59,929 nucleotides of DNA from Minisyncoccota bacterium. Lineage in GTDB: Bacteria > Patescibacteriota > Minisyncoccia > Phycocordibacterales > UBA9973. The position numbers were made by a program, and so were the translations under genes. Shown here one piece after another: positions 14,221 to 31,962 of this stretch; within the stretch, counting starts at the first letter, position 1, and every line of letters begins with the position of its first letter. The DNA lies in NCBI GenBank assembly GCA_018061145.1, contig JAGOUR010000005.1, positions 1 to 59,929 on the forward strand. The letters run 5' to 3'. The notes below the pieces were generated by a model, which did no database searches, was not told the origin of the DNA, and saw nothing but the letters and a program-made list of their open reading frames with translations.

Positions 14221-15894
14221 ATGAGCCCAGAAACGAGAGCGTGCGTGAATTGCAAAGGGGAGTTCGTAATTGAACCAGAGGATTTTGTGTTCTATGAGAG
14301 GATGAAAGTCCCAGCTCCACATGTATGTCCTGATTGCAGGTTTAAAATGAGGGCTGTATGGAGGAATGAAATGTCTCTTTATACTGGGGTGCAGTGCGGT
14401 CTATGTGATAAATCTATCATTTCTATGTATAATCCAAAATCTGGATTTACTGTGTATTGCAATAGTTGCTATAGAGGGGATGGGTGGGATTCTCGCGAAT
14501 ATTCTGCGGATTATAATTTTTCTCGACCGTTTTTTGACCAGCTAAAAGATTTAATAAAAAAAGTACCAAAGAATTCCTTGTATAGTACTACTGGAGTAGG
14601 GCAGAGCGTGAATAGTGACTATACTAACTGCGGCGGAGGCTTAAAGAATTGCTCCCTTTGCTTTAATTCTTCTATTCTTGAAGATTCTATGTACACAAGA
14701 GGGGCTACTTATTCTAGTAATTTAATCGATTCGTATTTTTGTAAAAAAGTAGAAAATTGTTATGAATGTATAAATGTTCATAATAGTGTGGGAGTTAGAC
14801 ACGGACAGAATAGCGTAAACTGTATGGACTGTACATTTATAGAGAATTGTTCAAATTTGAACAATTGTATTGGCTGTGTAAATTTACGAAATAAAAGTTT
14901 CCATATTCTAAATAAAGAATATTCAAAGGAAGAATATTTTGAGATCTTAAATAAGATTAATTCTTCATATGTGGAATTTGTGAAATTTAAAGAAGAGTTT
15001 GAAAAACTAAGACTAGACCACCCTCATAGAGCAAATGAAAATATTAAAATTCAGGATTGTATCGGTGATTATATTTCTGAATCTAAAAATGTACATTATT
15101 CTTTTGAGATTATAAATGGAGAAGATTCAAAGTGGAATTTTTCTAGTCGAGAAATGAAGGATTGTTACGGAACAGTAGGGTATGGGATAAAATCAGAATT
15201 ACTTCTCGAGTGTACTTCTACAGGCTATGTGTCCAGAGGTATAGGGTGCTGGGCTTGTGAGATCGGATCTGATCTTGAGTATTCTATTTCTTGTTTTCCT
15301 AACAATAAAAATCTGATTGGATGTGATTCACTGAAGAATTCTCAGTATTGTATTCTTAATAAACAGTATTCAAAAGATGAATACGAAAAAATTCGAGACC
15401 ATATAATAAATGAATTAAAAGAAAAGAATTTATATGGATTGATGATGCCTCCAGATCTTGCACCTTTTGCCTACAACGAGACCATAGCCCAAGACAATAT
15501 GCCTATGAGCAGAGTTGATGCACTATCTCTAGGCTTTCGCTGGGAGGATGATATCCAGATTACAAAAGGCAAGGAGACATTGACCCCAGAGAGTATTCCA
15601 GACAATATAGATGATGTATCTGATGATATAAAGGGCGAAGTGCTCCGGTGTGTAGAATGTACTAGAAACTACAAAATAACCGAAGCTGAATTGTTATTCT
15701 ACCGCAAGATGAAATTGCCGATTCCTAGGTACTGTTTTTATTGTAGACACAAAGATAGATTGAACCGTCGTGGTCCGTATAAATTCTGGAATAGAAAATG
15801 TGATTTTTGCGGAGATGGTATCACTACTACCTACTCCCCAGATAGACCAGAAAAAGTGTATTGTGAGAAGTGTTATCAAAAAGAAGTATTGTAA
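14221..15894 (+). CDS. Cys-rich Zn-ribbon/repeat protein, paralog 1
   Basis: CVNC..CPDC, CGLC..CNSC, repeated NCxxCxxLxNKxY blocks, C-terminal CVEC..CFYC, CDFC..CEKCYQKEVL. Confidence 0.8.
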   Translation: MSPETRACVNCKGEFVIEPEDFVFYERMKVPAPHVCPDCRFKMRAVWRNEMSLYTGVQCGLCDKSIISMYNPKSGFTVYCNSCYRGDGWDSREYSADYNFSRPFFDQLKDLIKKVPKNSLYSTTGVGQSVNSDYTNCGGGLKNCSLCFNSSILEDSMYTRGATYSSNLIDSYFCKKVENCYECINVHNSVGVRHGQNSVNCMDCTFIENCSNLNNCIGCVNLRNKSFHILNKEYSKEEYFEILNKINSSYVEFVKFKEEFEKLRLDHPHRANENIKIQDCIGDYISESKNVHYSFEIINGEDSKWNFSSREMKDCYGTVGYGIKSELLLECTSTGYVSRGIGCWACEIGSDLEYSISCFPNNKNLIGCDSLKNSQYCILNKQYSKDEYEKIRDHIINELKEKNLYGLMMPPDLAPFAYNETIAQDNMPMSRVDALSLGFRWEDDIQITKGKETLTPESIPDNIDDVSDDIKGEVLRCVECTRNYKITEAELLFYRKMKLPIPRYCFYCRHKDRLNRRGPYKFWNRKCDFCGDGITTTYSPDRPEKVYCEKCYQKEVL

Positions 15895-15898
15895 AAAT

Positions 15899-17680
15899 AT
15901 GGAAACAAAAAACTGCCACCCCAAAGGAAAGAGTACTTCCTACGGGGCAGGAAACTGTAAAGAGAATTTTAACATCACACCCGATGATTTTTCCTTCTAT
16001 GAGAAAATAGGTGTCCCAGCCCCGACCTTTTGCCCAGAGTGTAGAATGCAGAGACGTCTAGCATGGAGAAATGAGAGAGGTCTGTACTTTCGAAAGAATG
16101 ACAAGCCTGGCTCCGAAGAAAAAATGATCTCTACTTACCCTGAGAGTATTCCTGTTTCCTCTTACGACAATACTTATTGGTGGAGTGATAGTTGGGATGC
16201 TATATCTTTTGGTTGCGAATATGATTTATCTCGAGATTTCTTTTCTCAGTATAAAGATCTTTTATATAGAACACCCCTGATTTCTTTTTTTGATAGCAAG
16301 GGTGTAAATAATCAATTTTGTAATTATATTACTGAGAGTAAAAATAATTATATGCTTTCTGCTGTTTGGACATGTGAAGATTCTATGTATTCAAACAGGA
16401 TATCATTTTGTCAGAATACAGTAGATTCATATATCAGCCACAAGCTAGATTTCTCGTACGAGGATATTTATTGTGGGGATTCGTCTCGATTGTTTTATAG
16501 CGAGAACTCATATAACTGTGTAAATTCATATTTTCTTTTTGACTGTAGGAATTGTACTGATTGTTTTATGTGTAATAGTTTGAGAAATAAATCTTATTGC
16601 ATAAACAATATTCAATACTCAAAAGATGAATATAAAGAAAAAATTAAAGAATTTAATTTGAGTAGTTATGCATCAATTCAAAATCATAAGGCATCATTTG
16701 AGTTATTAAAGAAAAATGCCATTAGGAAATACGCCCAGCTTACCAACTGTGTAAATGTGGTGGGGGATAATATGCAAAATGCAAAAGATGCATATTATTC
16801 TTTTGATCTGCCAGGGGGTGTCGAGAATATCAAATATTGTAACTGGGGGACTTTTGGATTGAAGGATTCATACGATGTCGGCCCTGGTGCAGGTGGAAAG
16901 TCAGAACTTACTTATGAGGGTATTAGTATCGGTGTAGCTAATAGTAATGTAAAATTTAGTGTCGTCGTCTGGAATTCTACTAATGTGGAGTATTCGTTTA
17001 ATTGCTATTCGTGCAATAATTGTTTTGGTTGTGTGAGTTTGAAAAATAAAAATTATTGTATATTAAACAAGCAATATGAAAAAGATGAATATTTTGAGTT
17101 GCTAGGCAGAATAAAAAAACAAATGAATGAAATCCCTTACCGTGACAGCATGGGGAATATCTATAAATATGGAGAATTTTTCCCTTTAGAGATTGCTCCT
17201 TATGCTTATAATGATACTGTTGCAGGGGACTTTTTCCCTTTGAGTGAAAATGATTTAGTTCAGAAAAATTTTCAATATATACCAAAAGTAAATAAACAAT
17301 ACAATATTACTGTTAAGTTTTCTGACTTGCCTGATTCAATCATTGATGTAAATGATTCTATCCTGAGTGAGATTGTAGAATGTAAAAATACAAACAATGA
17401 TAAGTATGTAACTTGCACCAAAGCTTATAAACTGAATGAAGCAGAAGTTTCTTTCTACAAGAGGCTCGGTATTCCACTGCCTCGAGTTTGTTATAGTTGT
17501 CGTCATGCGGACAGATTGTCAAAACGTAATCCAATGAAGCTTTGGCACCGTCAGTGTATGTGTAATTTAGATAACCATGATCACGCAGGGCAGTGTGAGG
17601 TAGAGTTTGAAACCAGCTACTCCCCAGACAGACCTGAAAAAGTGTATTGTGAGAAATGTTATCAAAAAGAAGTCTTGTAA
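15899..17680 (+). CDS. Cys-rich Zn-ribbon/repeat protein, paralog 2
   Basis: Same architecture. ATG 15899 lies 4 nt after the paralog 1 stop. First CxxC is interrupted by an 11-aa insertion. Confidence 0.8.
   Translation: METKNCHPKGKSTSYGAGNCKENFNITPDDFSFYEKIGVPAPTFCPECRMQRRLAWRNERGLYFRKNDKPGSEEKMISTYPESIPVSSYDNTYWWSDSWDAISFGCEYDLSRDFFSQYKDLLYRTPLISFFDSKGVNNQFCNYITESKNNYMLSAVWTCEDSMYSNRISFCQNTVDSYISHKLDFSYEDIYCGDSSRLFYSENSYNCVNSYFLFDCRNCTDCFMCNSLRNKSYCINNIQYSKDEYKEKIKEFNLSSYASIQNHKASFELLKKNAIRKYAQLTNCVNVVGDNMQNAKDAYYSFDLPGGVENIKYCNWGTFGLKDSYDVGPGAGGKSELTYEGISIGVANSNVKFSVVVWNSTNVEYSFNCYSCNNCFGCVSLKNKNYCILNKQYEKDEYFELLGRIKKQMNEIPYRDSMGNIYKYGEFFPLEIAPYAYNDTVAGDFFPLSENDLVQKNFQYIPKVNKQYNITVKFSDLPDSIIDVNDSILSEIVECKNTNNDKYVTCTKAYKLNEAEVSFYKRLGIPLPRVCYSCRHADRLSKRNPMKLWHRQCMCNLDNHDHAGQCEVEFETSYSPDRPEKVYCEKCYQKEVL
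15919..15951. repeat. 33-nt in-frame palindromic insertion
   Basis: CCCC-AA-AGGAA-AGAGTAC-TTCCT-AC-GGGG-CAGG. Removing it restores TGC CAA AAC TGT (CQNC), as in the paralogs. Confidence 0.65.
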
Positions 17681-17684
17681 AAAT

Positions 17685-19403
17685 ATGGAACATCAAACAG
17701 AAAACAAAGTGTGTCAGAATTGCAAAGGGGATTTCACTATCGATCCAGAGGATTTTGTGTTCTATGACAAGATCAAAGTCCCAGCACCTACATTCTGCTC
17801 AGAGTGTAGAATGATCAGGAGAATGATGTGGAGGAACAGTAGATCACTTCATCGAAGAGAATGTTTTATGTGCAAAAAATCATTGATCAGCATGTATTCT
17901 GATTCAGCTCCAATTAGTTGTTCTGATTGCTGGAATGGCACACAGAGAGATCCTTTTTCTAATGGAAAAGATTATGATTTTTCTCGTTCATTTTTTGATC
18001 AACTTAAAGAGCTTTTTGCTGTTTCTCCAAGATTTTTCTCATACCAATTTGGTACACTAGTGAATTCAGATTTTACTAACTTTTCAAAGGACAACAAGAA
18101 TGCTTATCTGTCGTATTCAGTTACGGATTGCGAAGATGTGATGTATTCAGAGACAATAGATAAATCAAAAAATAGTATGGATTGTTATGCCACCCAGAAA
18201 GCCGACGGCTGTTCATACAATGTGGATTGTGAGGGTAATTATAATACTCATTTTGCTGTGAAGTCTCAGAACTGTATTGATTCATACTTTGTTTATGATT
18301 GCTCAAATTGCCAGAATTGTTACCTGTCTTCAAACCTAAGGAATCAGCAATATTATTTTAAAAATCAGAAATTATCTAAAGAGGCTTATCAGGAAGCTAT
18401 TAGAGAATATAACCTAGGTAGTTATTCTGGTTTTGAAAAATCAAAAAAAGAATTCAATGAATTAATTTTAAATAATACTATTCATAAGTATGCTTTTATC
18501 TATTCAGCTCAAGATGTAACAGGGGATTATATTCACCATGCAAAGAATATAAAGAAATGTTTTGATACTAATGATGCTGAAAATATTGCTTATAGTGTTA
18601 GAGCCATTGAAGTGAAGGATTCATATGATCTAGGGGGTACTGGTTTTAAGGCTGAACTTATTTATGAATCAATGGCTGCAACTGCTAATACTGCTCGGGA
18701 TTTTTTCTGTTACTTAACTATCCAGGGCTGCACCGAGTGTGAGTATTCTTTAATTTTAAGAAATTGCACAAATTGTTTTGCTTGTGTGGGATTGATAAAT
18801 GCTAAATATTGTATTTTTAATAAACAATACACAAAGGAAGAATATGAAATTCTTGTTCCCCAAATAAAACAGCACATGATGGATATGCCATATGTAGACA
18901 AGAAGGGAAGAGTTTTTAGGTATGGAGAATTTTTCCCTTATGATATGTCTCCGTTTGGATACAACGAAACAAATGCCCATGACTTTTTCCAAAAGACAAA
19001 AGAGATGGCCATTGAAAGTGGTTTTAAATGGAAGGATAGAATAAAGAGAGAGTATGCTGTTACTAAACAGTCTCGAGATTTACCTGATCATATTGATGAA
19101 GTTGATGATAGTATTCTAGATGAAACGATATCTTGCCCGAATGATGGTAGTCCAGACTCACAATGTACTACTGCATTTAAAATCGTGCCGAACGAATTAA
19201 TGTTTTATAGACAAAAGAAATTACCATTACCTAGGTATTGTCCAAACTGCCGTCACTACGACAGATTAAAATATCGTAATTCAATGAAATTATATAAACG
19301 GGAATGTTCAAACGACTGCGGAACTATTTTCGAAACTACATACTCCCCAGACAGGCCTGAAAAAGTATTTTGCGAGAAGTGTTATCAAAAAGAAGTGTTG
19401 TAA
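17685..19403 (+). CDS. Cys-rich Zn-ribbon/repeat protein, paralog 3
   Basis: CQNCKGDF..VPAPTFCSECR start and PEKVFCEKCYQKEVL end. ATG 17685 lies 4 nt after the paralog 2 stop. Confidence 0.8.
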   Translation: MEHQTENKVCQNCKGDFTIDPEDFVFYDKIKVPAPTFCSECRMIRRMMWRNSRSLHRRECFMCKKSLISMYSDSAPISCSDCWNGTQRDPFSNGKDYDFSRSFFDQLKELFAVSPRFFSYQFGTLVNSDFTNFSKDNKNAYLSYSVTDCEDVMYSETIDKSKNSMDCYATQKADGCSYNVDCEGNYNTHFAVKSQNCIDSYFVYDCSNCQNCYLSSNLRNQQYYFKNQKLSKEAYQEAIREYNLGSYSGFEKSKKEFNELILNNTIHKYAFIYSAQDVTGDYIHHAKNIKKCFDTNDAENIAYSVRAIEVKDSYDLGGTGFKAELIYESMAATANTARDFFCYLTIQGCTECEYSLILRNCTNCFACVGLINAKYCIFNKQYTKEEYEILVPQIKQHMMDMPYVDKKGRVFRYGEFFPYDMSPFGYNETNAHDFFQKTKEMAIESGFKWKDRIKREYAVTKQSRDLPDHIDEVDDSILDETISCPNDGSPDSQCTTAFKIVPNELMFYRQKKLPLPRYCPNCRHYDRLKYRNSMKLYKRECSNDCGTIFETTYSPDRPEKVFCEKCYQKEVL

Positions 19404-19472
19404 GTTCATACTCAATTTATGCTATCGCACATGTTGAGTATAAGTTTTTATTTTAGGATGAGGTGAAATAAT

Positions 19473-19949
19473 ATGGAAGAAATTAATAATATAAAACCTA
19501 CACAAGTAATGACCCTCTGTATTCTCCGTAAGGGAGATGATCTTTTGTTGGGTATGAAGAAGATTCTCTTTGGTGTAGGAAAATATAATGGCTACGGTGG
19601 CAAAGTAGAACCAGGGGAGAGTGTGGAGCAGGCACTCGTGCGCGAGATGAAAGAGGAGTCAGGACTTGATCTGCTGAGATACGAGCTCCGTGGTGTGGCT
19701 AAATTTGAGTTTCCCGATTCTATAAGGGAAGTTCATATATATGAAGGCTTGGATTGTACAGGAGTTCTAGTTGAGAGTAACGAGATGATTCCATACTGGT
19801 TCCATATAGATAAAATCCCTTTTGAGAAGATGTGGAAATCTGATAAATATTGGTTCCCATTTTTTCTAAATAGAGAATATTTTGAAGGTGGTGCTATTTT
19901 TGATGAAAATTACAATCTGCTGTCTTGCAAAATAGAAAAAATTGGGTAA
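19473..19949 (+). CDS. Nudix hydrolase, MTH1/8-oxo-dGTPase-like
   Basis: GGKVEPGESVEQALVREMKEESG Nudix box and IPFEKMWKSDKYWFP (MTH1-type C-terminus). Confidence 0.88.
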   Translation: MEEINNIKPTQVMTLCILRKGDDLLLGMKKILFGVGKYNGYGGKVEPGESVEQALVREMKEESGLDLLRYELRGVAKFEFPDSIREVHIYEGLDCTGVLVESNEMIPYWFHIDKIPFEKMWKSDKYWFPFFLNREYFEGGAIFDENYNLLSCKIEKIG

Positions 19950-20093
19950 AAAACTACAAAAAATGAAATTTTTTGTAGTTTTTTAGTTTTTATAAATTTT
20001 TCTGAAAATAACTTCTGTTTTAATGCTCTGTCAGGGATGCAGTTGACGACGGGGTAAGTGTCCGACATAGTGCTTTTTTGCCTGTTTTGGGTA

Positions 20094-20122
20094 TTGGCAT
20101 GGTTTTGGTCGGGCGGTATAAT
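20094..20122 (+). promoter_or_regulatory. Sigma70-type promoter of nrdJ
   Basis: TTGGCA-17 nt-TATAAT. Confidence 0.6.
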
Positions 20123-20172
20123 AATAGTCCAAAGTATCGGAGGATACATTATTATTAATTTTTTATAAAAAT

Positions 20173-22542: not shown

Positions 22543-22558
22543 GATAAAAAAACTTATG

Positions 22559-22680
22559 ATCCCGTTAGAAGTCATGCATGTTATTCTAGCTACGGATTTT
22601 ATTTGAAGAAATTAGTTATATTCGAGTTTATTAGTTAAATTATGTACGATACTCTAAAGAGTATCTACTTCTAACGGGAT
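22559..22680. mobile_element. Short inverted-repeat (MITE/REP-like) element
   Basis: Perfect 14-bp IR ATCCCGTTAGAAGT (22559-22572) / ACTTCTAACGGGAT (22667-22680), with an inner GATACTCT-AA-AGAGTATC hairpin. Confidence 0.6.
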
Positions 22681-23200: not shown

Positions 23201-23207
23201 TTCATTT

Positions 23208-23373: not shown

Positions 23374-23398
23374 ATTATTTAATATGCATTAAATTATT

Positions 23399-23920
23399 AT
23401 GAAAAATAAATATATTAAAATATTTTTGTTCGCTGTCCTGGCTGTGCTGTTTATTGCTTTCTTTTATCAATATTCTAAAAAAGTTATCAATTCTGAATCA
23501 GTAGTGAATACTACACCTAAAATAGAGGCCCCAAAGCTAGTACCGAGAAAAACTGAAAGTTCCAAAAAAGTTACTTCTAAAATTTCAGAAGTAAAAGAAA
23601 TAATTCCAGAAGTAGATACGAATAAGATAAGTATTAAAATAATAGTCGAAGACAAGGTATACGAATCGAGGGCATCAGAAGGGATGAGTATATACCAATC
23701 AATGGTAGATCTATCTACTCAGAATAAAAATTTTACTTTTACGTCAAAAGACTATAGTGGTATGGGTATGTTCGTAGATAGTATTAATGGTGTACAAGGT
23801 AATGAGGGTAAATATTGGGTGTATTATTTAAATGACAAAAAAGCATCTGTGGGTATATCCAAGAATTTTTTGAAAGAGGGTGATACTGTGCGATGGGAGA
23901 GAGAAGGTTTTATTAATTAA
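23399..23920 (+). CDS. Membrane-anchored DUF4430 / transcobalamin beta-domain-like protein
   Basis: N-terminal TM, YSGMGMFVDSINGVQ..KYWVYYLNDKKASVGISKNFLKEGDTVRW pattern. Confidence 0.8.
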   Translation: MKNKYIKIFLFAVLAVLFIAFFYQYSKKVINSESVVNTTPKIEAPKLVPRKTESSKKVTSKISEVKEIIPEVDTNKISIKIIVEDKVYESRASEGMSIYQSMVDLSTQNKNFTFTSKDYSGMGMFVDSINGVQGNEGKYWVYYLNDKKASVGISKNFLKEGDTVRWEREGFIN

Positions 23921-23972
23921 AGGATATGAATCCTGTTGTAATCTGTGATCGCAATTAAATATAAATAATAAT

Positions 23973-26018
23973 ATGAAAAAAAATATATTTTCTATCTTAA
24001 TAATACTCGGTTTTATTTTCTCAGGATTTTTTGTATATGCAGAAGATTCTAATCCGACAGATCAAAATACTGGAAATCCGCAAGTAGAAGAGACTCAGAA
24101 TCCAACATCAGCCCCACTAGAAGAGCAGTCTCCGGTACAAGAAATTCCTACAGAAGAACAGCCTCCGGTAGAGCAAAATCAAGCTGAAGAACCTGCACCA
24201 ATTTTGTATGAAAATATATTTATTCGTAATGGTGCGGATGTTGTGTATAGTGGGGATATTGCTCTACCTCCAGAAGGGAATATAGATATACTAGATAATG
24301 TGGGAGTATCCCACTCTGTGAATTCTCGTAGTGTGCTCGGTGTGCTATACACTCTCGATCAAACAGAAGATTCTTTCTCACTTTCTAGTCTGCAGTACTA
24401 TGATTCTTTTTCTTCTTTTTATTTGAAATGTTTAAATACAAATTCATCCGGAGAAGCGTGTGATAATTGGCAGTATGTAGTAGGAGGTGCTAGTCCTTGG
24501 ACAAGTATCGATGCAACTATTCTCTCAGGAGGAGAAAATATTGGTTTGTATTTTGGTAGTCCATACAAGGTAGACTTAGATACTAATACAATCACAACTA
24601 CTGGGTTCATAACTGCACAGGCAAAATCTTATAATTACACAGACGATACATGGGTGGTGCGTACAGGTGTGCATATCGGCATAACCCAGACAAATCCGCA
24701 TGACCCATGGAGCCCAACCGTAATATCAACTACGTCTGTAGATGATATTGGTAGAGCGGATCTTTCTTTCTCAATTCCCGGTACCTACAATATAGGAGTA
24801 TCAGAGGATTATTATTTCCCATCTTATTCTGTTTCTGTCGCGGAGTCTGTATCTTCCGGGGGTTCAAATAGTGCTCCTGTTGTAGTAGCTTTTTCAAAAG
24901 AAAATGCAGTAGCTTTTTTAAATGCCAATAAAAAATCAGATGGGTCTCTGGGTGCATCATTGTATACGGACTGGGGGGCTGTCGCTATCGGATCTACTGG
25001 TGACTCAGCTCTGATTGAAAGCATCGCTGTATATCTAACATCAAATAATTTTACATCAAGCACTGTGACTGACAATGAGCGCCATGCGATGGCCCTGATG
25101 TCCCTCGGCATAAATCCATACAGTGGGACAAGCGTAGATTATATCTCAAAAATTGTAGGAAAATTTGATGGAGTCCAGATAGGGGATGTGAACCTGGATA
25201 ATGATGATATCTTTGGTCTAATTGTTTTGAAAAAAGCTGGGTATTCATATAAAGATGAGATAGTCGCCAATACTATTGATTTTATAAAAACTAAACAATA
25301 CCCAAATGGGTCTTGGGATAATAGTGCCGATATGACATCTGCTGCGATAATGGCACTGTCTCCTTTTAAAAATAAAAATGGAGTCTCAGATTATATAGAC
25401 AAAGCTTATATTTATCTAACCAGCAATCAATCTTCTGATGGGCGTATAGGTGACAATGTATCTTCTACAAGCTGGGCTATACAGGCACTATCACTCGGAT
25501 CTGAATTTTCATCTGCTTTGTCCAATGCTAGAAATTATGTATCATCACAGCAGAAAAGTGATGGCGGTGTGGGTGATATAGGTAGTGACGTAGATTCACG
25601 TGTCTGGGCTACATCTTATGCACTAACAGCAGAATCACTCAAATCATGGATAGACATACTGTCTGACTTTGAGAAGCCTGCAGTCACAGAAATAGTAAAA
25701 ACTTCAGGTGAAGATAATGTGGAAATTATTCCTGCTGTTATCATTCCTATTGTTCAAGAAAAAATTGTACCGATTACTCCAGTCATCCAAGAAACTAAAA
25801 AAGAAATAAAAAAAGAAGAAGTAAAAAAACAAAATAAAGAAGTAAAAAAGATAACACCTGTCGTTAGGAATGATATTGTGGATAGTCCTGTGCCATCAAA
25901 AAATAACCTAGTAGCAAGTGCGAGTTCTGCGCCGTTTGTATCTAAAATACCCGCAATCACAAGGGTTGTGTGGCATAATATTACAACATTTTTTGGTTTA
26001 ATTTTTAATTTCTTTTAA
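23973..26018 (+). CDS. Secreted protein with DUF4430-like domain and prenyltransferase/squalene-cyclase (alpha/alpha barrel) repeats
   Basis: Signal peptide, Q/E/P linker, NWQYVVGG..GENIGLYF, repeats FL..NKKSDGS, FI..KQYPNGSW, YL..NQSSDG, YV..QQKSDGG, K/E-rich tail. Confidence 0.72.
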   Translation: MKKNIFSILIILGFIFSGFFVYAEDSNPTDQNTGNPQVEETQNPTSAPLEEQSPVQEIPTEEQPPVEQNQAEEPAPILYENIFIRNGADVVYSGDIALPPEGNIDILDNVGVSHSVNSRSVLGVLYTLDQTEDSFSLSSLQYYDSFSSFYLKCLNTNSSGEACDNWQYVVGGASPWTSIDATILSGGENIGLYFGSPYKVDLDTNTITTTGFITAQAKSYNYTDDTWVVRTGVHIGITQTNPHDPWSPTVISTTSVDDIGRADLSFSIPGTYNIGVSEDYYFPSYSVSVAESVSSGGSNSAPVVVAFSKENAVAFLNANKKSDGSLGASLYTDWGAVAIGSTGDSALIESIAVYLTSNNFTSSTVTDNERHAMALMSLGINPYSGTSVDYISKIVGKFDGVQIGDVNLDNDDIFGLIVLKKAGYSYKDEIVANTIDFIKTKQYPNGSWDNSADMTSAAIMALSPFKNKNGVSDYIDKAYIYLTSNQSSDGRIGDNVSSTSWAIQALSLGSEFSSALSNARNYVSSQQKSDGGVGDIGSDVDSRVWATSYALTAESLKSWIDILSDFEKPAVTEIVKTSGEDNVEIIPAVIIPIVQEKIVPITPVIQETKKEIKKEEVKKQNKEVKKITPVVRNDIVDSPVPSKNNLVASASSAPFVSKIPAITRVVWHNITTFFGLIFNFF

Positions 26019-26044
26019 ATCTATCATTTTGGTATAATTAACTT

Positions 26045-26632
26045 ATGTTTAAAACAAAACAAAATATATTCATCGTGTCTGTTGTCGCTATTATTATATT
26101 GATTATGGGTGTTGGTTTTATTGTTGAAAAGACTGCAAAACCTGGAAAGTATGATGCTTTTGCACAAGCTCTCAAATCTGAGGGTGCAGTATTCTACGGT
26201 GCATTCTGGTGTCCGCATTGTCAGGCTACAAAAGCTCTTTTTGGTAGTTCTAAAAAGTATGTACCGTATGTAGAATGTTCTACTCCTGATTCACGGGGTC
26301 AGACAAATGAGTGCAAGGCTAATAAAGTAGAGAGTTACCCGTCTTGGACATTCAAGAATGGTATAACATTGAAATCTTCCGACCCAAAGCCTCTTGCTTG
26401 TGCTCCTAGTCCTACTGGGGCAAAGATTGAGGGGGAGCCTGCTGTCTGTGCAAATATACATTCAGAGTACGCAAAAGTTTGGGTATTTTCAAATTATAAA
26501 TTCTCAATAAAGTCAGAAAAAGATCCAGTTCAAAATGGTGATGTTTGGAATTTTGATAGCAGTGCTATGGCTGTAGGTGAGATACCACTTGAATTTTTGG
26601 CCGAACAGATAAAGTTTACTCTACCTCAATAA
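26045..26632 (+). CDS. Membrane-anchored thioredoxin/DsbA-like oxidoreductase
   Basis: YGAFWCPHC active site, YVECS, cis-Pro loop SYPSW. Confidence 0.85.
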   Translation: MFKTKQNIFIVSVVAIIILIMGVGFIVEKTAKPGKYDAFAQALKSEGAVFYGAFWCPHCQATKALFGSSKKYVPYVECSTPDSRGQTNECKANKVESYPSWTFKNGITLKSSDPKPLACAPSPTGAKIEGEPAVCANIHSEYAKVWVFSNYKFSIKSEKDPVQNGDVWNFDSSAMAVGEIPLEFLAEQIKFTLPQ

Positions 26633-26633
26633 T

Positions 26634-27179
26634 ATGCCTACTTACGTACCTACATTGAATTATATATTGTCTCTAGGGACGATTTTCATACAGCTTTTTT
26701 GCTTTACTATTTTTGGAGCACTTTTGTTTTTTAGAAAAAAAGATAATGTGTTTTTGAAATTTTTGCACGACTACACATTTATAATTGGATTCCTAACTGC
26801 ATTTGGTGCTATGGCAATTAGTTTATTCTATTCAAATGTGATTGGATTTCCAGCCTGTGAATTGTGTTGGATGCAGAGAATATTTATCTATCCACAAGTT
26901 ATTCTTTTTGGTATGGAGCTCTGGAAGAGGGAGAAGGTGATAGTGGACTACGCACTAGTTCTCGCATTTATAGGCAGTATAATATCACTATTCCATATAT
27001 ATGTAGAACATGGAGGAGCGTCAAATCTCGCTTGTGCTACGGGTAGTGCTACCGAGGTGTCATGCGCAGTACGATATGTATATGAATTCTCTTATGTATC
27101 TATCCCTGTTATGGCGCTGTCTATGGGGGTATTCTTGATGTTGATACTTTGGAATTATAAATACATCTCAAGAGCATAA
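26634..27179 (+). CDS. DsbB/BdbC-family disulfide bond formation protein
   Basis: PACELCWMQRIFIYP, second Cys pair (LAC..VSC), 4-5 TM helices. Confidence 0.88.
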   Translation: MPTYVPTLNYILSLGTIFIQLFCFTIFGALLFFRKKDNVFLKFLHDYTFIIGFLTAFGAMAISLFYSNVIGFPACELCWMQRIFIYPQVILFGMELWKREKVIVDYALVLAFIGSIISLFHIYVEHGGASNLACATGSATEVSCAVRYVYEFSYVSIPVMALSMGVFLMLILWNYKYISRA

Positions 27180-27210
27180 AAAAACTCACCCATCCGGGTG
27201 AGTTTTTTTT
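27179..27210. terminator. Intrinsic terminator
   Basis: AAAAAACTCACCC-ATCC-GGGTGAGTTTTTTTT. Confidence 0.8.
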
Positions 27211-27243
27211 GCGTAGTGTTTAATTTTGTGATACAGTAGAACA

Positions 27244-28470
27244 ATGTTTAAAAATAAAATTTTGATCACAATTTTCCTTACTGTATTTATTGACTTGCTC
27301 GGGGTGGGCATACTGATCCCGGTTATTCCTCAGTTATTTGCTAATCCATTCTCATCGGAATACATGCTTCCATTTGGCACGTCTCTTAATCAGGGATATA
27401 TGTTACTAGGGCTATTGATTGCTGTGTATCCAATCGGTCAATTCCTAGCTACTCCTATACTCGGACAGTTGTCTGATAAATACGGCAGAAGGAAAATTCT
27501 CAGTATTGCACTTTTGGGGACGGCCCTGTCTTATGTATTGTTCGCTATTGCAATCATCACAAAAAATATCCCACTATTATTTGCTTCAAGATTTTTTGAC
27601 GGTATCACCGGTGGAAATATATCTATAGCACAGGCTATGATAGGGGATGTATCAAGTCCAGAGAATCGTGCAAAAAACTTTGGTATGCTTGGTGCGGCAT
27701 TTGGCCTTGGATTTATCTTCGGGCCATACATAGGAGGCAAGCTTTCTGATCCATCAATCGTGTCTTGGTTTAGTGCCGCTGTACCATTTTACTTTGCCGC
27801 ATTTTTGGCATTTATAAATATGCTGTCTGTACTGTTCCTAGTTCCTGAGACCAATAAAAATCTACGCAGAGAAGAACTGACTTGGGGTAAATCAATATCA
27901 AATATAAAGCGCGCAATGCAGATGAAGGGGATGAGTGTGCTGTTTGCTACAAACTTTTTATTCTTTGGAGGATTTACATTTTTCACTACTTTCTTTGGGG
28001 TATTTTTAATTAATAAATTTTCTTTTACTCAGGGAAATATCGGAGATTTTTTTGCATACGTAGGCCTATGGAGTGTATTTACTCAGGCAGTACTCACTCG
28101 GGCTTTTTCAAAAAGATTTAGTGAATATCAGATACTTAGTTATTCGATGATGGGTGCAGGTGTTATGATTCTCGCATATTTCTTGCCACAGTATTCTTGG
28201 CAATTATTATTGATCCCTCCATTCTTTTCTATATGTACAGGATTGACTATGGCCAATGTAAATAGTCTACTCTCAAAATCTGCACCAGCCGATCAAAGAG
28301 GGGAAATCATGGGAATCAGTTCTTCTGTGCAGGCCCTAGCCCAAGCTATCCCTGCAGTACTCTCAGGATTCATCGCTGCAGCGCTGGCCTCTACTACACC
28401 ACTACTAATAGCTGCGATAACTATAGTCATATCGGGCTTAGTATTTCGATTCTTGTATAAAAGAGTCTAA
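27244..28470 (+). CDS. MFS drug:H+ antiporter, TetA/DHA1-like
   Basis: FIDLLGVGILIPVIP, GQLSDKYGRR motif A, RFFDGITGGN, GAAFGLGFIFGPYIGG, 12 TM helices. Confidence 0.9.
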   Translation: MFKNKILITIFLTVFIDLLGVGILIPVIPQLFANPFSSEYMLPFGTSLNQGYMLLGLLIAVYPIGQFLATPILGQLSDKYGRRKILSIALLGTALSYVLFAIAIITKNIPLLFASRFFDGITGGNISIAQAMIGDVSSPENRAKNFGMLGAAFGLGFIFGPYIGGKLSDPSIVSWFSAAVPFYFAAFLAFINMLSVLFLVPETNKNLRREELTWGKSISNIKRAMQMKGMSVLFATNFLFFGGFTFFTTFFGVFLINKFSFTQGNIGDFFAYVGLWSVFTQAVLTRAFSKRFSEYQILSYSMMGAGVMILAYFLPQYSWQLLLIPPFFSICTGLTMANVNSLLSKSAPADQRGEIMGISSSVQALAQAIPAVLSGFIAAALASTTPLLIAAITIVISGLVFRFLYKRV

Positions 28471-28486
28471 AATGTATAATTAAAGT

Positions 28487-30235
28487 ATGAATAAAGAAGT
28501 GCGTCAATGCCAGAACTGCAAGGAGGATTTCACTATAGAAACCGAGGATTTTGTGTTTTATGACAAGATAAAAGTCCCACCGCCTACATTTTGCCCGGAG
28601 TGCAGGTGTATTCGACGCATGATTCACCGTAATGAAAGACACTTATTCCGGAGGACTTGTGATGTTACTGGTAAAAGTATTATTTCTATTTACCCACCAG
28701 AATCTCCATACACAGTTTGTGATAAGGATTATTATTTTTCAGATGCTTTTGACCCATTTAAATACGGATCGGTTTATAATCCTGATTTAAAATTTTTTGA
28801 GCAGTTTTATGAATTTGCAAAAAAAGTCCCACTCACATCTTTATTTGTTAGAATTTCAGAAAAATGTGAGTACAATCAGGATATGAGTAATTCGTCGAAT
28901 TGCTACCTCTGTTTTAGAACACACGATTCTCAAAATATGTTTTATACATATCGAGGGAATAAATCAAATAATTGTTTTGATTGTTTTCAAGCTGTTATTT
29001 CCTCTGAATTCCTGTATGAATGTGTCGATGTATCTACTTGTAATAATAGTCGGTTTTTAAGTTCTTGTGAAAAATGTTCTGATTCAGCTTTTCTGTATAA
29101 CTGTACTGGTTGTGTTGATTGTTTTATGTGTACTGATCAGAGGAATAAACAATGTTATTTTAAAAACCAGCAATACTCCAGAGAAGAATATAAGAAGATA
29201 ATTGATTCATATAACCTTTCTACTTATGAGGGGCAGAAAAAAGCCTTGTCTGAATTTGAAGAATTTTTAAAACAAAAACCAAGAAAAAATTTAACAATAA
29301 TCCGTTCAGACAATGTAACAGGTGATAATATCACTGATTCCAAGGATGCCAAATATGTTTTTAATGTAAAATCCTTGCAAAACTGTTCATATATTTGGGA
29401 CTCATTTAGATTTACTGATTCAATGGATACATATTCTGGTGCTGGGTCTGAGTTGTTATATGAGACTACTGCTACAACTGCCCATAGTAGCAACTGTCGT
29501 TTTTGCGTCAGGGTTCATGAAGGGTCTCGTGACTGTGAGTATAGTTGGTTTCTCCAAAATTGTTCAAGTTGTTTTGGTTGTATTGGGCTTAAGAATCAGG
29601 AATATTGTATTTTTAATGTTAAATACAATAAAGATGAGTACGAAGAACTTGTCGGTAGAATTAAAAATAAGATGCTAGAAGATCGTGAATACGGCGAATT
29701 CTTCCCAGCTTATACTTCACCGTTCGCTTATAATAATACAGTAGCCCATGAATTTTTCCCCATGGCCAAAGAGACTGCTCTTGAGGCGGGTTTTGGTTGG
29801 AAAGATTTAGAAGATAAGAATTATGTTGCTAACGTTGATTCTGTTGATTTGCCGGGTGATATTTCTAATGTTGGTGATGATATTTTAAATCAGATAATTT
29901 CTTGTTCACATAAAGGGGGGTGTGGGCATGGTTGCACTAAGGCATTTAAAATTGTGGCTGATGAACTTTCTTTTTATCGAAATAAAAAAATACCAGTACC
30001 GCATGAATGTCCTAACTGCAGGCATTATCGCAGATTAGAAACTCGTAATCCGACAATGCTACGTGATACAAAATGTATGTGTGAGGGTGATGGAGTATGT
30101 AATGATGTCTATAAAAATACTATTCCTCATGAGCATGGGGCTGGTCCTTGTGGTAAAAAATTGCAAACATCAATAAGAGAAGATAGTAATTTCATAGTTT
30201 ATTGTGATAGTTGTTATAAAAAAGAAGTATTTTAA
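28487..30235 (+). CDS. Cys-rich Zn-ribbon/repeat protein, paralog 4
   Basis: CQNCKEDF..VPPPTFCPECR start and VYCDSCYKKEVF end. Confidence 0.8.
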   Translation: MNKEVRQCQNCKEDFTIETEDFVFYDKIKVPPPTFCPECRCIRRMIHRNERHLFRRTCDVTGKSIISIYPPESPYTVCDKDYYFSDAFDPFKYGSVYNPDLKFFEQFYEFAKKVPLTSLFVRISEKCEYNQDMSNSSNCYLCFRTHDSQNMFYTYRGNKSNNCFDCFQAVISSEFLYECVDVSTCNNSRFLSSCEKCSDSAFLYNCTGCVDCFMCTDQRNKQCYFKNQQYSREEYKKIIDSYNLSTYEGQKKALSEFEEFLKQKPRKNLTIIRSDNVTGDNITDSKDAKYVFNVKSLQNCSYIWDSFRFTDSMDTYSGAGSELLYETTATTAHSSNCRFCVRVHEGSRDCEYSWFLQNCSSCFGCIGLKNQEYCIFNVKYNKDEYEELVGRIKNKMLEDREYGEFFPAYTSPFAYNNTVAHEFFPMAKETALEAGFGWKDLEDKNYVANVDSVDLPGDISNVGDDILNQIISCSHKGGCGHGCTKAFKIVADELSFYRNKKIPVPHECPNCRHYRRLETRNPTMLRDTKCMCEGDGVCNDVYKNTIPHEHGAGPCGKKLQTSIREDSNFIVYCDSCYKKEVF

Positions 30236-30237
30236 GC

Positions 30238-31962
30238 ATGGAGAATCAATCAGAAAAAAGAATATGCCAGAATTGTAAAGGGGAATTCACCATTGAATCT
30301 GAGGATTTTGCGTTTTATGACAAGATAAAAGTCCCACCGCCTACATTTTGCTCTGACTGCAGGTTGCAGCGTCGACTCTCTTTTCGCAATACCCACTCTC
30401 TTTATAAAAGAAAAGATTCTTTCAATGGTAAAGATATTCTTTCCATATATTCACCAGATAAAAAATTAGTAGTTATTGATCAAAAAGATTGGTGGAAGGA
30501 TGGGTGGGATCCTTTTGATTATGGTGTAGATTATGATTTTTCGAAATCTTTCTTCTCTCAGTGGAAAGAATTGAGAGATACTGTTCCTCTACAAAGTTTA
30601 TCCAATTCCAAGGCTGTAAATAGTGAGTATTGTAATGTTGCTGAAGAAAGTTATGATTGCTATCTTATTTCTGCTTCTTGGAAATGCGAGAGAGTTATGT
30701 ATTCTGATTCAATACATATAATAAAAGATTCAATGGATCTTCATGTTGTATTTAGGTCTGAATTTTGTTATGCAGATGTTTCTTGTGCTGATTCGTATAG
30801 ATTGTTTTATAGCCAAGATTCATATGCGTGCACAGATTCATACTTTTTATACGATTGCCGTGGGTGCACTGATTGTTTTATGAGCTCTAATCTGCGAAAT
30901 AAGAGCTATGTATTCAAAAATGAACAGCTATCTAAAGAAGCATATAAAGAAAAAATTAAAGAATTAAACTTGGGAAGTTTTACCGAAATTCAAGAATTTA
31001 AAAAAGAATTTAATGATATGAAGCTAAATTCAGTTCATCGATTTGCCCAAATTTTGAATTCCTATAATGTTACTGGCGATAATGTCGATCATGCAAAAAA
31101 TTGCTCGTATTGTTTTAATGTTACTGATGGGCTTGAAGATTGTAAAAATATTTTTTGGGGTGGCATGAAAGCAAAAGAAGTATTTGATAGTGGTCCTGGA
31201 GTAGGGGATGGTCAGCTTATGTATGAAGTGTTCGATACTGGTATTGGAGCTTTTAAAAATCTTTTTACAAGTGTTGTCTACAATAGTATAGATGTAGAAT
31301 ATTCATTTAATTGTTATAACTGCTCTTATTGCTTCGGTTGTTTGGGTTTACGGAATAAAAAATTTTGTATTTTGAATAAGCAATATACGAAAGAGGAGTA
31401 CGAAGATATTTTACCCAAAATAAAAAAACATATGAGCGGTATGCCGTATGTTGATAATCAAGGCAGGATTTACAAGTATGGAGAATTTTTCCCAGTTGAA
31501 TTGTCTCCGTTTTGTTACAACGAAACAGTTGCTCAAGAATATTTTCATTTATCAAAAGAGCAAGCAATATCTCAAGGTTTTTTATGGAAAGATAAAGAGG
31601 TGCGTTCTTATATGCCTACAATTAATTCCGCAGATTTACCTGACGACATACAAGACGCTTCAGAAGATATTTTAAATGATATTATTCTATGTGGTCATAA
31701 AGGGGAATGTGCCGACAGGTGTACCTCTGCCTTTAAAGTAACGAGAGACGAACTATCTTTTTACAAGAGGTTTGATATACCGATTCCTCGTTTATGCTAC
31801 GGATGTAGATTTGCTCAATATTTTAAAATGAGAAATCCTTTAAAGCTCTGGAACAGAAAATGCATGCACGAAGGTTGTGATAATGAATTCCAGACTAGCT
31901 ACGCCCCAGATCGCCCAGAGATTATTTATTGTGAAAAGTGTTATCAGCAGGAAGTGATTTAA
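30238..31962 (+). CDS. Cys-rich Zn-ribbon/repeat protein, paralog 5
   Basis: CQNCKGEF..VPPPTFCSDCR start and PEIIYCEKCYQQEVI end. Starts 2 nt after paralog 4. Confidence 0.8.
   Translation: MENQSEKRICQNCKGEFTIESEDFAFYDKIKVPPPTFCSDCRLQRRLSFRNTHSLYKRKDSFNGKDILSIYSPDKKLVVIDQKDWWKDGWDPFDYGVDYDFSKSFFSQWKELRDTVPLQSLSNSKAVNSEYCNVAEESYDCYLISASWKCERVMYSDSIHIIKDSMDLHVVFRSEFCYADVSCADSYRLFYSQDSYACTDSYFLYDCRGCTDCFMSSNLRNKSYVFKNEQLSKEAYKEKIKELNLGSFTEIQEFKKEFNDMKLNSVHRFAQILNSYNVTGDNVDHAKNCSYCFNVTDGLEDCKNIFWGGMKAKEVFDSGPGVGDGQLMYEVFDTGIGAFKNLFTSVVYNSIDVEYSFNCYNCSYCFGCLGLRNKKFCILNKQYTKEEYEDILPKIKKHMSGMPYVDNQGRIYKYGEFFPVELSPFCYNETVAQEYFHLSKEQAISQGFLWKDKEVRSYMPTINSADLPDDIQDASEDILNDIILCGHKGECADRCTSAFKVTRDELSFYKRFDIPIPRLCYGCRFAQYFKMRNPLKLWNRKCMHEGCDNEFQTSYAPDRPEIIYCEKCYQQEVI

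What the first reader, a model, noticed from the sequence alone, without database searches (positions are those of the whole stretch)
14221..31962. Five Cys-rich paralogs with near-identical DNA ends and divergent cores: a candidate recombination-diversified repertoire
Seen: two tandem arrays (14221-19403, three genes; 28487-31962, two genes) of 557-593-aa proteins. None has a signal peptide. Each has Zn-ribbon-like CxxC pairs at both ends and two internal blocks of Cys/Ser/Asn repeats ending in NCxxCxxLxNKxY..NxQYxKxEY. The central repeats differ heavily between copies, but the ends are conserved at DNA level. 28544-28594 vs 30301-30351 match 50/51, with all 17 third-codon positions identical and the single change non-synonymous. 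The gene1/2 and gene2/3 junctions (15831-15904 vs 17617-17690) match 70/74, including the same AAAT spacer and ATGGAA. Gene 1 and gene 3 share 23 identical nt in their 5' ends. Inference: the conserved caps act as recombination or gene-conversion handles that duplicate, delete or swap variable solenoid cores. That would give a receptor-like repertoire (for example phage or host sensing), loosely analogous to LRR or antigenic-variation cassettes. Caveat: the 4 junction mismatches are synonymous, so protein-level selection explains part of the conservation. I know of no established function for this family.
Basis: partly seen in the sequence, partly recalled or inferred. Interest (0 to 1): 0.82.

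Follow-up and report, generated by a model that had tools for sequence, protein, structure and literature searches.

The report
Cassette-like zinc-ribbon gene arrays in Paceibacteria
Five neighbouring genes of an unnamed protein family found in tiny symbiotic (CPR) bacteria share short, near-identical DNA 'caps', and close relatives show that recombination at these caps deletes and re-pairs the old, well-conserved gene cores, so strains carry different sets; what the proteins do is still unknown.

Summary
There are five same-strand paralogues (557-593 aa) with Cys4 zinc ribbons at both ends and an internally duplicated beta-solenoid core. The DNA matches of 50/51 and 70/74 are real.

The family has no annotation. 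It is large (about 2,200 clusters at 50% identity with E<=1e-30) and was found in Patescibacteria, in tandem arrays of up to 12 or more copies.

At long evolutionary range the cores are not hypervariable:
- Each window gene has a closer relative in another genome (51-75% aa) than in its own array (35-48%).
- No co-resident pair exceeds 60% core identity.
- No core mosaics were found.
- dN/dS is 0.06-0.13.

At short range, in relatives with 90-99% identical flanks, the arrays differ, and the breakpoints I mapped on the 5' side lie in the N caps. The window has G1-G2-G3. Relatives carry capG1::coreG2-B, G1-X-B' or G1-X-Y. In one relative the second array is capG4::coreG5', with homology to the window ending at 28602, just past the flagged patch. 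Four cap types each occur on two or more cores.

So the caps are real substrates for homologous recombination (gene conversion, deletion, cap-core re-pairing). The 'receptor or sensing repertoire' idea is untested. An adaptive role is not yet separated from simple deletional decay.

The parts
14221..15894 (+). G1, family member (557 aa). First gene of array 1, after the fusA terminator.
   Evidence: Orthologues are 96% identical in L122 and L135, 87% in L133, and 47-60% in many species. dN/dS is 0.06.
15899..17680 (+). G2, family member (593 aa). Its N cap is the cap found on cores X and Y in relatives. Its core is the one fused to the G1 cap in L084/L137.
   Evidence: Against X, the cap is 0.92-0.94 nt identical and then drops to 0.3-0.65. 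The core is 100% identical to L084 gene A over about 750-900 nt.
17685..19403 (+). G3, family member (572 aa). In relatives this slot holds core B (50% aa identity) behind the same cap.
28487..30235 (+). G4, family member (582 aa), first gene of array 2.
   Evidence: Orthologues are 83.5% identical (L136) and 72% (L005). dN/dS is 0.07.
30238..31962 (+). G5, family member (574 aa). This is the protein whose structure was predicted.
   Evidence: orthologues 55-75% identical; pLDDT 84-86, pTM 0.86-0.90.
14221..14339 (+). N cap of G1: codons 1-40, first Cys4 zinc ribbon. It is a recombination breakpoint.
   Evidence: Homology of L084/L137 to G1 ends at 14339 and resumes at 15980 inside G2.
15899..16017 (+). 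N cap of G2, a recombination breakpoint. It carries a 33-nt insertion.
   Evidence: Homology of L122/L135 (93-94%) runs through G1 and the junction and ends at 16017.
17685..17852 (+). N cap of G3, a recombination breakpoint.
   Evidence: Homology of L084/L137 ends at 17852. Gene B keeps 0.90-0.94 nt identity for about 35 codons only.
28487..28602 (+). N cap of G4, containing the 28544-28594 patch. It is a recombination breakpoint.
   Evidence: Homology of L137 (92%) ends at 28602 and a G5-type core follows. The patch matches G5 at 50/51 nt.
30238..30362 (+). N cap of G5, containing the 30301-30351 patch.
   Evidence: The other assembly of the same genome (L083) breaks at 30370.
15826..15904 (+). 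C tail of G1, then TAA, the AAAT spacer and ATGGAA of G2 (junction module).
   Evidence: The same junction is present in L122 and L135.
17612..17690 (+). C tail of G2, then TAA, the AAAT spacer and ATGGAA of G3 (junction module).
   Evidence: 70/74 nt identical to the G1/G2 junction.
19335..19403 (+). C tail of G3, homogenised with the G1 and G2 tails.
   Evidence: 57-58/66 nt to G1 and G2 against 43-49/66 to G3 orthologues.
15917..15949 (+). 33-nt hairpin-forming insertion inside the first CxxC of G2. It turns CQNC into C-HPKGKSTSYGAG-NC.
   Evidence: alignment with L122; fold of -14.6 kcal/mol.
14150..14180 (+). Intrinsic-terminator-like hairpin between fusA and G1. It suggests that array 1 is its own transcription unit.
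   Evidence: 14-pair stem followed by a T run.

Best explanation
The five genes belong to an uncharacterised family of soluble cytoplasmic proteins that was found in Patescibacteria.

Protein architecture, in order:
- an N-terminal Cys4 zinc ribbon of the treble-clef type;
- an optional second Cys4 site;
- two copies of a beta-solenoid-plus-helix module, which arose by internal duplication;
- an alpha/beta region;
- two C-terminal Cys4 ribbons.

The cores are old and functionally distinct types, each under strong purifying selection (shown).

The first ~40-55 codons of each gene, and the last ~22 codons together with the stop, the 4-nt spacer and the next start, are similar enough between copies to act as direct repeats for ordinary homologous recombination. 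That the mechanism is RecA-type recombination is inferred. Three results follow:
(i) Short gene-conversion tracts homogenise the caps within a genome (shown).
(ii) Cap-to-cap crossovers delete the intervening cores and leave an upstream cap fused to a downstream core (shown in relatives for both arrays).
(iii) The slots of an array hold different core types in closely related strains (shown). One core, G2, is 100% identical between lineages whose flanks have dS of 0.2-0.3, which suggests recent exchange between lineages (inferred).

I saw no recent duplication. Turnover is therefore mainly loss and re-pairing from an ancient pool, not birth of new copies.

Function is inferred with low confidence. 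The shared zinc-ribbon ends probably contact a common partner, and the paralogue-specific solenoid surfaces probably bind different targets. In many other genomes the arrays sit between two orphan VirD4/TraD-like ATPase genes inside the dnaK operon. One of those ATPases carries the same zf_Tbcl_2 finger. These ATPases are the best candidate partners.
For: Family size and array structure: (5,407 hits; 2,171 clusters at 50% identity with E<=1e-30; arrays of up to 12 copies).

Cores are ancient and stable:
- each window gene is closer to a gene in another genome.
- all three core segments of each gene agree on the orthogroup.
- 99% of 210 genes have a closer core in another genome, and no co-resident pair exceeds 0.6.
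- no core mosaics.
- dN/dS of 0.06-0.13, against 0.02-0.05 for fusA, RNR and MFS.
- X has 54-58% identical orthologues in distant genomes.

Gene conversion at the caps:
- for the window.
-, family-wide: identical-DNA segments scoring >=40 occur in 13.4% of within-genome pairs against 1.5% of between-genome pairs, concentrated at codons 1-45, 366-440 and 545-574.
- a co-resident paralogue is closer than the core orthologue at 30/155 N ends and 32/155 C ends, against 0/155 in core B.

Cap-located breakpoints and chimeras in close relatives.
- L084 and L137 are independent JGI and ENA (k141) assemblies that are 99.97% identical.
- X is 99.5% identical in two assemblies, L122 and L135.

Structure.

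Genomic context. PMC12102498 reports about 2 orphan T4CP homologues per Patescibacteria genome.
Against: - All comparison sequences are metagenome assemblies. Repeats of 40-50 nt break contigs here (L083), and in principle they could mis-join them.
- The 'close relatives' are at dS 0.2-0.34, so they are not clonal, and the order of events cannot be reconstructed.
- Only 4-5 haplotypes were sampled.
- The C-tail conservation is not significant at synonymous sites alone.
- The right-hand boundary of the G3/B replacement lies beyond the C tail, inside the nudix gene. Not every breakpoint is therefore in a cap.
- No T4CP-like gene or dnaK lies in this window, so the functional link is by association in other genomes only.
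- There is no structural or sequence homologue of known function.
Confidence: 0.65

Rival explanations
1. Adaptive repertoire. Variation in cassette content between strains is maintained by frequency-dependent selection. The cores would act as sensors, immunity proteins or effectors in a conflict with phages, competing bacteria or the host cell. The caps would be kept similar because selection favours exchangeability.
For: - Array content differs among relatives with 90-99% identical flanks.
- One core is 100% identical across lineages whose flanks have dS 0.2-0.3, suggesting recent spread.
- Arrays of divergent paralogues with 5' and 3' homology blocks are typical of T7SS immunity loci (PMC9484751).
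- CPR bacteria are episymbionts.
- The arrays are linked to VirD4-like ATPases in 43 of 83 loci.
Against: - Cores are under purifying selection as strong as in housekeeping genes and have stable orthologues across genera.
- No match to PADLOC defence models.
- The window's context is housekeeping: fusA, RNR, MFS, cutA.
- No toxin, secretion system or mobile-element gene is adjacent in the window.
- The proteins are cytoplasmic and, at about 570 aa, much larger than typical immunity proteins.
Confidence: 0.25
2. Neutral deletional decay. A long ancestral array is being eroded independently in each lineage by recombination between direct repeats, as expected in reduced genomes. The chimeras and differing contents are by-products and form no functional 'repertoire'.
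For: - There are no recent duplicates anywhere.
- Most cap-core combinations seen can be derived by nested cap-to-cap deletions from a larger array of the form G1-X-Y-..-G2-G3-B.
- Array length ranges from 1 to 12 or more copies.
Against: - The retained copies, chimeras included, keep intact reading frames and low dN/dS.
- The 100%-identical G2 core inside diverged flanks needs transfer, not just loss.
- The G3/B replacement extends into nudix, which looks like an import by homologous recombination.
Confidence: 0.25
3. The similarity of the ends is only protein-level constraint on zinc ribbons plus AT-biased codon usage, with no recombination.
For: - The ends are the most conserved protein segments family-wide, also between genomes: aa identity 0.55-0.65 in both within-genome and between-genome pairs.
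- The tail mismatches are all synonymous, and the tail is not significant on the synonymous run test.
Against: - A run of 19 identical codons between G4 and G5 has P=0.0007.
- The G4 patch matches its own orthologue at only 28/51 nt, against 50/51 to G5.
- The non-coding spacer is identical.
- Within-genome pairs have about 9-fold more long identical segments than between-genome pairs.
- Relatives carry chimeras.
Confidence: 0.03
4. Assembly artefact. The chimeric genes and differing arrays in the relatives are mis-joins at the repeated caps in short-read metagenome assemblies.
For: - A second assembly of the same genome breaks exactly at family genes: L083 spans 18872-30370.
- G1 and G5 fragments sit at contig ends.
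- The 100%-identical stretch of G2 could be strain collapse.
Against: - The exact repeats are <=40 nt, shorter than the final k of 141 in the ENA assembly.
- The H2 haplotype was recovered in JGI and ENA contigs of 86 and 258 kb that are 99.97% identical, and it is also deposited at NCBI.
- X is 99.5% identical in two assemblies.
- A core swap would need two in-frame mis-joins that return to the same locus.
Confidence: 0.07

Closest known systems
Tandem T7SS immunity gene arrays (esaG in Staphylococcus aureus, tipC in Streptococcus), which evolve by homologous recombination through conserved blocks (Garrett et al. 2022, PMC9484751)
   Same: - Strings of non-identical tandem paralogues on one strand.
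- Blocks of high DNA similarity at the 5' and 3' ends.
- Recombination between those blocks explains loss, expansion and chimeric genes among close strains.
   Different: - No sequence or fold relationship.
- The proteins here are about 570 aa with four zinc ribbons, not small immunity proteins.
- No adjacent toxin or T7SS.
- The cores here are ancient orthogroups under strong purifying selection, and no recent duplicates were seen.
- The lineage is Patescibacteria.
zf_Tbcl / zf_Tbcl_2 treble-clef zinc fingers (Pfam PF13451, PF23477; NCBIfam TIGR04272 CxxC-x17-CxxC)
   Same: - The terminal domains have the CxxC...CxxC pattern and the F-x-P-x-RP-x-YC-x-x-C motif.
- 34 and 27 of 79 family members hit these models.
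- Zinc binding by this domain is shown in M. mazei small proteins (PMC12704099).
   Different: - The window's own proteins score below the curated cut-offs.
- These models cover only about 40 aa at each end. The roughly 430-aa core matches nothing.
Left-handed beta-helix (hexapeptide-repeat) proteins such as LpxD, gamma-carbonic anhydrase and PglD
   Same: - The predicted core has short strands at a 6-residue spacing (345-366 of G5).
- All the top, though non-significant, Foldseek hits are of this class.
   Different: - Foldseek E>=0.05 and TM 0.1-0.2.
- No Hexapep Pfam hit.
- No acyltransferase or carbonic-anhydrase active-site evidence.
- This is a resemblance in fold class only.
Antigenic-variation cassette systems (Neisseria pilE/pilS, Borrelia vlsE), from my own knowledge
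   Same: Conserved flanks allow segments to be exchanged between variable cassettes.
   Different: - All copies here are complete genes with start codons, and the tight 2-4 nt spacing suggests they are co-transcribed.
- There is no single expression site and there are no silent partial copies.
- The products are cytoplasmic.
- Variation is seen between strains, not shown within a clone.

Membership tests
zf_Tbcl / zf_Tbcl_2 (PF13451 / PF23477; TIGR04272) | Score above the curated gathering threshold of the model | tested here: not met
   Only G1 hits: zf_Tbcl_2 at 17.3 bits (cut-off 27), zf_Tbcl at 14.1 (cut-off 24), TIGR04272 at 14.6 (cut-off 36). Among 79 diverse family members, 34 and 27 hit at E<=0.05, with a best E of 1e-6.
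zf_Tbcl / zf_Tbcl_2 (PF13451 / PF23477; TIGR04272) | Two CxxC pairs forming a Cys4 site, conserved across the family | tested here: met
   Cys at 10/13/38/41, 485/495/520/523 and 542/547/565/568 (G5 numbering) is present in 87-100% of 229 members.
zf_Tbcl / zf_Tbcl_2 (PF13451 / PF23477; TIGR04272) | Zinc binding | not testable with these tools
   Shown only for M. mazei small proteins that carry the domain (PMC12704099).
Left-handed beta-helix / hexapeptide-repeat superfamily | Significant sequence (Pfam Hexapep) or structure match | tested here: not met
   No Hexapep hit. The best Foldseek PDB E-values are 0.049 and 0.17, with TM <=0.24.
LIM domain | Double zinc finger matched by profile | tested here: not met
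   The 5-sequence profile hit CRP1 at E=1e-4. With the 79-sequence profile this faded to E=0.22. Only 3 of 79 members hit Pfam LIM.
Recombining tandem-paralogue arrays of the esaG/tipC type | Tandem non-identical paralogues with 5' and 3' DNA homology blocks | tested here: met
Recombining tandem-paralogue arrays of the esaG/tipC type | Chimeric genes and differences in copy content among close relatives, with breakpoints in the homology blocks | tested here: met
   Breakpoints lie at 14339, 16017, 17852 and 28602. Four cap types each occur on two or more cores.
Recombining tandem-paralogue arrays of the esaG/tipC type | Homology to DUF600/EsaG or TipC, with an adjacent polymorphic toxin and T7SS | tested here: not met
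   No such Pfam hits. The neighbours are fusA, nudix, RNR, MFS and cutA.
Antigenic-variation cassette systems | One expression locus plus silent partial cassettes, and a surface-exposed product | tested here: not met
   All five are full ORFs with ATG starts and 2-4 nt spacing. There is no signal peptide or TM segment.
Known anti-phage defence systems (PADLOC-DB 2.0) | Match to any defence protein model | tested here: not met
   No hits at E<=1 for any of the five proteins.

The most novel reading that the evidence does not exclude
The family is a strain-variable set of substrates or specificity adaptors for the orphan, soluble VirD4/TraD-like ATPases of Paceibacteria. Those ATPases are encoded far from any virB4, and no function for them was found here. 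One of them shares the family's zf_Tbcl_2 finger. On this reading the family would be a major, so far unrecognised host-interaction or conflict module of CPR episymbionts. Its content would be reshuffled by cap-mediated recombination.
Probability: 0.15. Interest if true: 0.85.

Novelty: new variant of a known kind. Interest (0 to 1): 0.68.

Why it matters
CPR/Patescibacteria genomes are tiny. Even so, many spend 1-3% of their DNA on this unannotated family: up to 12 or more copies of about 1.75 kb each.

A family that is all of the following is a strong candidate for something central to the episymbiotic lifestyle:
- found only in this lineage among the loci I sampled;
- under strong purifying selection;
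- variable in content between strains through a defined recombination mechanism;
- genomically tied to orphan type-IV-coupling-protein-like ATPases and the Hsp70 operon.

The finding gives a concrete, testable handle on part of the 'dark' CPR proteome through zinc binding, ATPase interaction and array haplotypes in populations.

It also matters for method. The caps fragment short-read assemblies, so the family is probably under-counted in MAGs.

Tried and rejected
1. Annotation by Pfam, NCBIfam, PADLOC, PDB sequence search and Foldseek (PDB and BFVD) gave only weak terminal zinc-finger hits and non-significant hits to left-handed beta-helix proteins.

2. My first conclusion was 'passive concerted evolution only, with no cassette exchange'. 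It rested on species-level comparisons. I dropped it when the metagenome scan turned up close relatives with different arrays.

3. The LIM-domain lead faded with a deeper profile (then).

4. Literature searches for a description of the family found nothing.

5. The exact-sequence contig look-up for G2 found no contig. The cluster look-up does list G2 as a member of the collection.

6. Programmed rearrangement (shufflon or DGR) was considered and rejected from the anatomy. All copies are direct repeats on one strand. The repeated parts are the conserved ends, not the variable parts. No recombinase or RT was seen among the annotated neighbours, although not every ORF in the window was scanned.

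7. The promoter scan was uninformative: 68 hits against 72 expected.


Full report
**What is in the window.** Five same-strand genes form two tandem arrays:
- G1, 14221-15894
- G2, 15899-17680
- G3, 17685-19403
- G4, 28487-30235
- G5, 30238-31962

An HMM built from the five finds no sixth copy in the window. The copies are 35-48% identical in protein. Array 1 follows a strong terminator-like hairpin after fusA (14150-14180), and its genes are 4 nt apart. Array 2 lies between an MFS transporter gene and cutA, and its genes are 2 nt apart. The surrounding genes are housekeeping: EF-G, NUDIX, class II RNR, DsbB, type IV pilus genes, RecJ and FtsK. Homologues and gene content place the organism in Patescibacteria, class Paceibacteria.

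**Check of the observation.**
- The 50/51 match has a single Val/Ala change.
- The 70/74 junction match includes TAA-AAAT-ATGGAA and has four synonymous mismatches.
- G1 and G3 share 23 exact nt.
- There is no hydrophobic segment.
- The two internal blocks are an internal duplication (E=1e-8).

I tested the matches against chance using synonymous sites only and the window's codon usage. The G4/G5 patch lies in a run of 19 identical codons (P=0.0007 over all pairs). The G1/G2/G3 tails are not significant on that test. However, they share derived states that each gene's own orthologues lack: YSPDRPEKV..QKEVL against YAPDRPEIV..QQEV. In nucleotides this is 57-60/66 among the three tails and 39-51/66 to orthologues.

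**What the protein is.** No curated family covers it. Only G1 gives weak, sub-threshold hits to the treble-clef zinc-finger models zf_Tbcl and zf_Tbcl_2. Of 79 diverse members, 34 and 27 hit those models.

Across 229 members, four Cys4 sites are conserved. The second site is lost in G2 and G5.

AlphaFold models of G5 are confident (pLDDT 84-86, pTM 0.86-0.90). They show these elements in order:
- an N-terminal ribbon;
- a lower-confidence repeat block;
- helices;
- a beta-solenoid with 6-residue strand spacing;
- helices;
- two C-terminal ribbons.

Foldseek finds nothing significant. The top hits are all left-handed beta-helix proteins, with E>=0.05. The CxxC-x17-CxxC domain binds zinc in Methanosarcina small proteins (PMC12704099).

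**Size and spread of the family.** There are 5,407 hits among the 90%-identity clusters. There are 2,171 clusters at 50% identity with E<=1e-30. Almost all hits that carry an organism name are Patescibacteria; the two exceptions, MAGs labelled Nanobdellota and Burkholderiales, were not checked.

In 83 loci I found 252 copies. Every one lies on the same strand as the gene the locus was fetched for. Arrays reach 12 copies within 22 kb.

**Long-range evolution: the cores are old and stable.**
- Each window gene has a closer relative elsewhere than in its own genome: G1 60%, G2 51%, G3 65%, G4 72%, G5 75%.
- All three core segments of each gene point to the same orthogroup.
- Of 210 genes that have a co-resident paralogue, 99% have a closer core in another genome (median 0.62 against 0.39). 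No co-resident pair exceeds 0.6, so there are no recent duplicates.
- Partners defined on core segment A stay at orthologue level in segment B (0/173 drop) and in segment C (2/173 drop, neither with a better donor).
- Between alleles, dN/dS is 0.06-0.13, similar to fusA, RNR and MFS at 0.02-0.05.

The heavy difference between copies is therefore ancient divergence, not diversification.

**The ends behave differently.**
- Within-genome pairs carry long identical DNA segments about 9 times more often than between-genome pairs (score >=40 in 13.4% against 1.5%). These segments sit at codons 1-45, 366-440 and 545-574.
- A co-resident paralogue is closer than the core orthologue at 30/155 N ends and 32/155 C ends. 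The figures for the cores are 0/155 in core B and 9/155 in core C.
- In the window, G4's patch matches G5 at 50/51 nt but matches its own 72% orthologue at only 28/51.

This is short-tract gene conversion.

**Short-range evolution: the decisive evidence.** A metagenome scan with G2, together with cluster and contig look-ups, found relatives whose flanks are 90-99% identical to the window (dS 0.19-0.34 in RNR and fusA).

Array 1 has four haplotypes:
- **H1 (the window):** G1-G2-G3.
- **H2 (L084 = L137; JGI and ENA k141 assemblies, 99.97% identical, also deposited at NCBI):** a 584-aa gene made of the G1 cap joined to the G2 core. It is followed by gene B, which has the G3 cap but a core only 50% identical to G3.
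- **H3 (L122):** G1 (96%) - X - B'.
- **H4 (L135):** G1 (96.6%) - X - Y.

X is 37-39% identical to every window copy, yet its first ~35 codons are 92-94% identical in DNA to G2's cap. Y carries the same cap, which is 98-100% identical to X's.

Homology to the window stops at 14339, 16017 and 17852, all inside N caps.

A G5-type core follows, 61% identical to G5.

The cap-core pairs observed are:
- capG1 with coreG1 or coreG2;
- capX with coreX, coreY or coreG2;
- capG3 with coreG3 or coreB;
- capG4 with coreG4 or coreG5'.

X and B have orthologues about 52-58% identical in distant genomes, so they belong to the same ancient pool.

The G2 core is 100% identical over about 750-900 nt between lineages whose flanks have diverged. 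This suggests recent exchange between lineages.

**How it most likely works.** The caps and junction modules are direct repeats long enough, and kept similar enough, for homologous recombination. The results are conversion patches, cap-to-cap deletions that leave in-frame chimeras, and slot replacement.

Most of the observed combinations can be derived by nested deletions from a longer ancestral array. The identical G2 core, and a divergent tract that extends into nudix, also point to imports between strains. I saw no evidence of duplication.

Whether the resulting variation is selected (a repertoire) or is deletional decay is open. I give each reading about 0.25 as the cause. The recombination mechanism itself holds under either.

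**Function.** Function is unknown.

In 43 of 83 loci the arrays are flanked by two soluble VirD4/TraD-like ATPase genes. A recurrent gene order is grpE-F-paaX-like-dnaK-Tlong-F..F-rsmE-Tshort-dnaJ. T-long carries a clear zf_Tbcl_2 finger.

I therefore favour, weakly, a modular binding or adaptor role linked to these ATPases. The window itself contains no such ATPase gene.

**Caveats.**
- All comparisons rest on metagenome assemblies.
- The caps break contigs: L083 is the same genome and ends at 18872 and 30370.
- Mis-joins are unlikely, because the exact repeats are <=40 nt and the haplotypes were recovered independently, but only long reads would settle it.
- Few haplotypes were sampled.

**Comparison with known systems and verdict.** At the DNA level the arrays behave like the esaG/tipC immunity arrays (PMC9484751), but they are not homologous to them and lack their toxin and T7SS context.

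They are not an antigenic-variation system, because all copies are complete genes and the products are cytoplasmic.

The protein family itself is undescribed, as far as the libraries and literature at hand show.

I rate it a new variant of a known kind, with interest 0.68.

Noticed in passing
L006, L010, L013, L016, L026, L028, L030, L032, L042, L048, L049, L056, L057, L060, L064, L066, L068, L074 and others (e.g. L057 7907-9961 and 13524-15080): In 43 of 83 loci the family arrays are flanked by two soluble VirD4/TraD-like ATPase genes of about 700 and 500 aa. The long one carries a zf_Tbcl_2 finger. They often lie inside the heat-shock operon, in the order grpE-F-paaX-like-dnaK-Tlong-F..F-rsmE-Tshort-dnaJ. 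Neither gene type is in the window.
   Followed up: partly
window 15917-15949: G2 carries a 33-nt insertion that can form a hairpin (-14.6 kcal/mol). It splits the first CxxC knuckle, turning CQNC into C-HPKGKSTSYGAG-NC, compared with the same cap on X and Y in relatives. It may disable the first zinc site of G2.
   Followed up: partly
window 16093-16840 vs L084 8141-8890: The G2 core is 100% identical between the window and a lineage whose flanking housekeeping genes have dS of 0.19-0.34. This suggests recent transfer of this cassette between lineages, or strain collapse during assembly.
   Followed up: partly
window 18872 and 30370 (ends of L083, GCA_017992635.1 JAGOOI010000022.1): A second assembly of the same genome is 100% identical but breaks inside G3 and just after the N patch of G5. 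Fragments of G1 and G5 also sit at contig ends. The caps fragment short-read assemblies, so copy numbers of this family in MAGs are probably underestimates.
   Followed up: yes
window 19359-19950 vs L084 11401-11990: The divergent tract around the G3/B replacement runs past the C tail, through the intergenic region and into the 5' half of the NUDIX gene (0.62-0.85 identity). Identity returns to 0.99 by about 19956. This recombination boundary is therefore outside the caps.
   Followed up: partly
P0262 (731 aa): One family member has an N-terminal GNAT acetyltransferase domain fused upstream of the full family architecture. It is the only domain fusion seen among 79 representatives.
   Followed up: no
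window G2, G5 and partly G4 (G5 residues 60-84): A second Cys4 site (C60/C63/C81/C84) is present in 61-83% of the family and in G1 and G3. It is lost in G2 and G5 and degenerate in G4.
   Followed up: no
window 20173-26018: A class II (B12-dependent) ribonucleotide reductase is followed by an ECF S-component-like membrane protein, a DUF4430 protein and a 681-aa secreted protein with a prenyltransferase/squalene-cyclase-like repeat. This may be a cobalamin-scavenging cluster.
   Followed up: no
L084 5668-7811 vs L137 5935-8079: In the JGI contig fusA is split into two ORFs (279 + 434 aa). It is intact (714 aa) in the 99.97%-identical ENA contig. This is probably a sequencing or assembly frameshift.
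   Followed up: no
window 7412-9151: A PIF1-like helicase with a C-terminal HTH_40 domain lies upstream of the rpsL-rpsG-fusA region. It is conserved in the relatives (L137 2771-4510).
   Followed up: no
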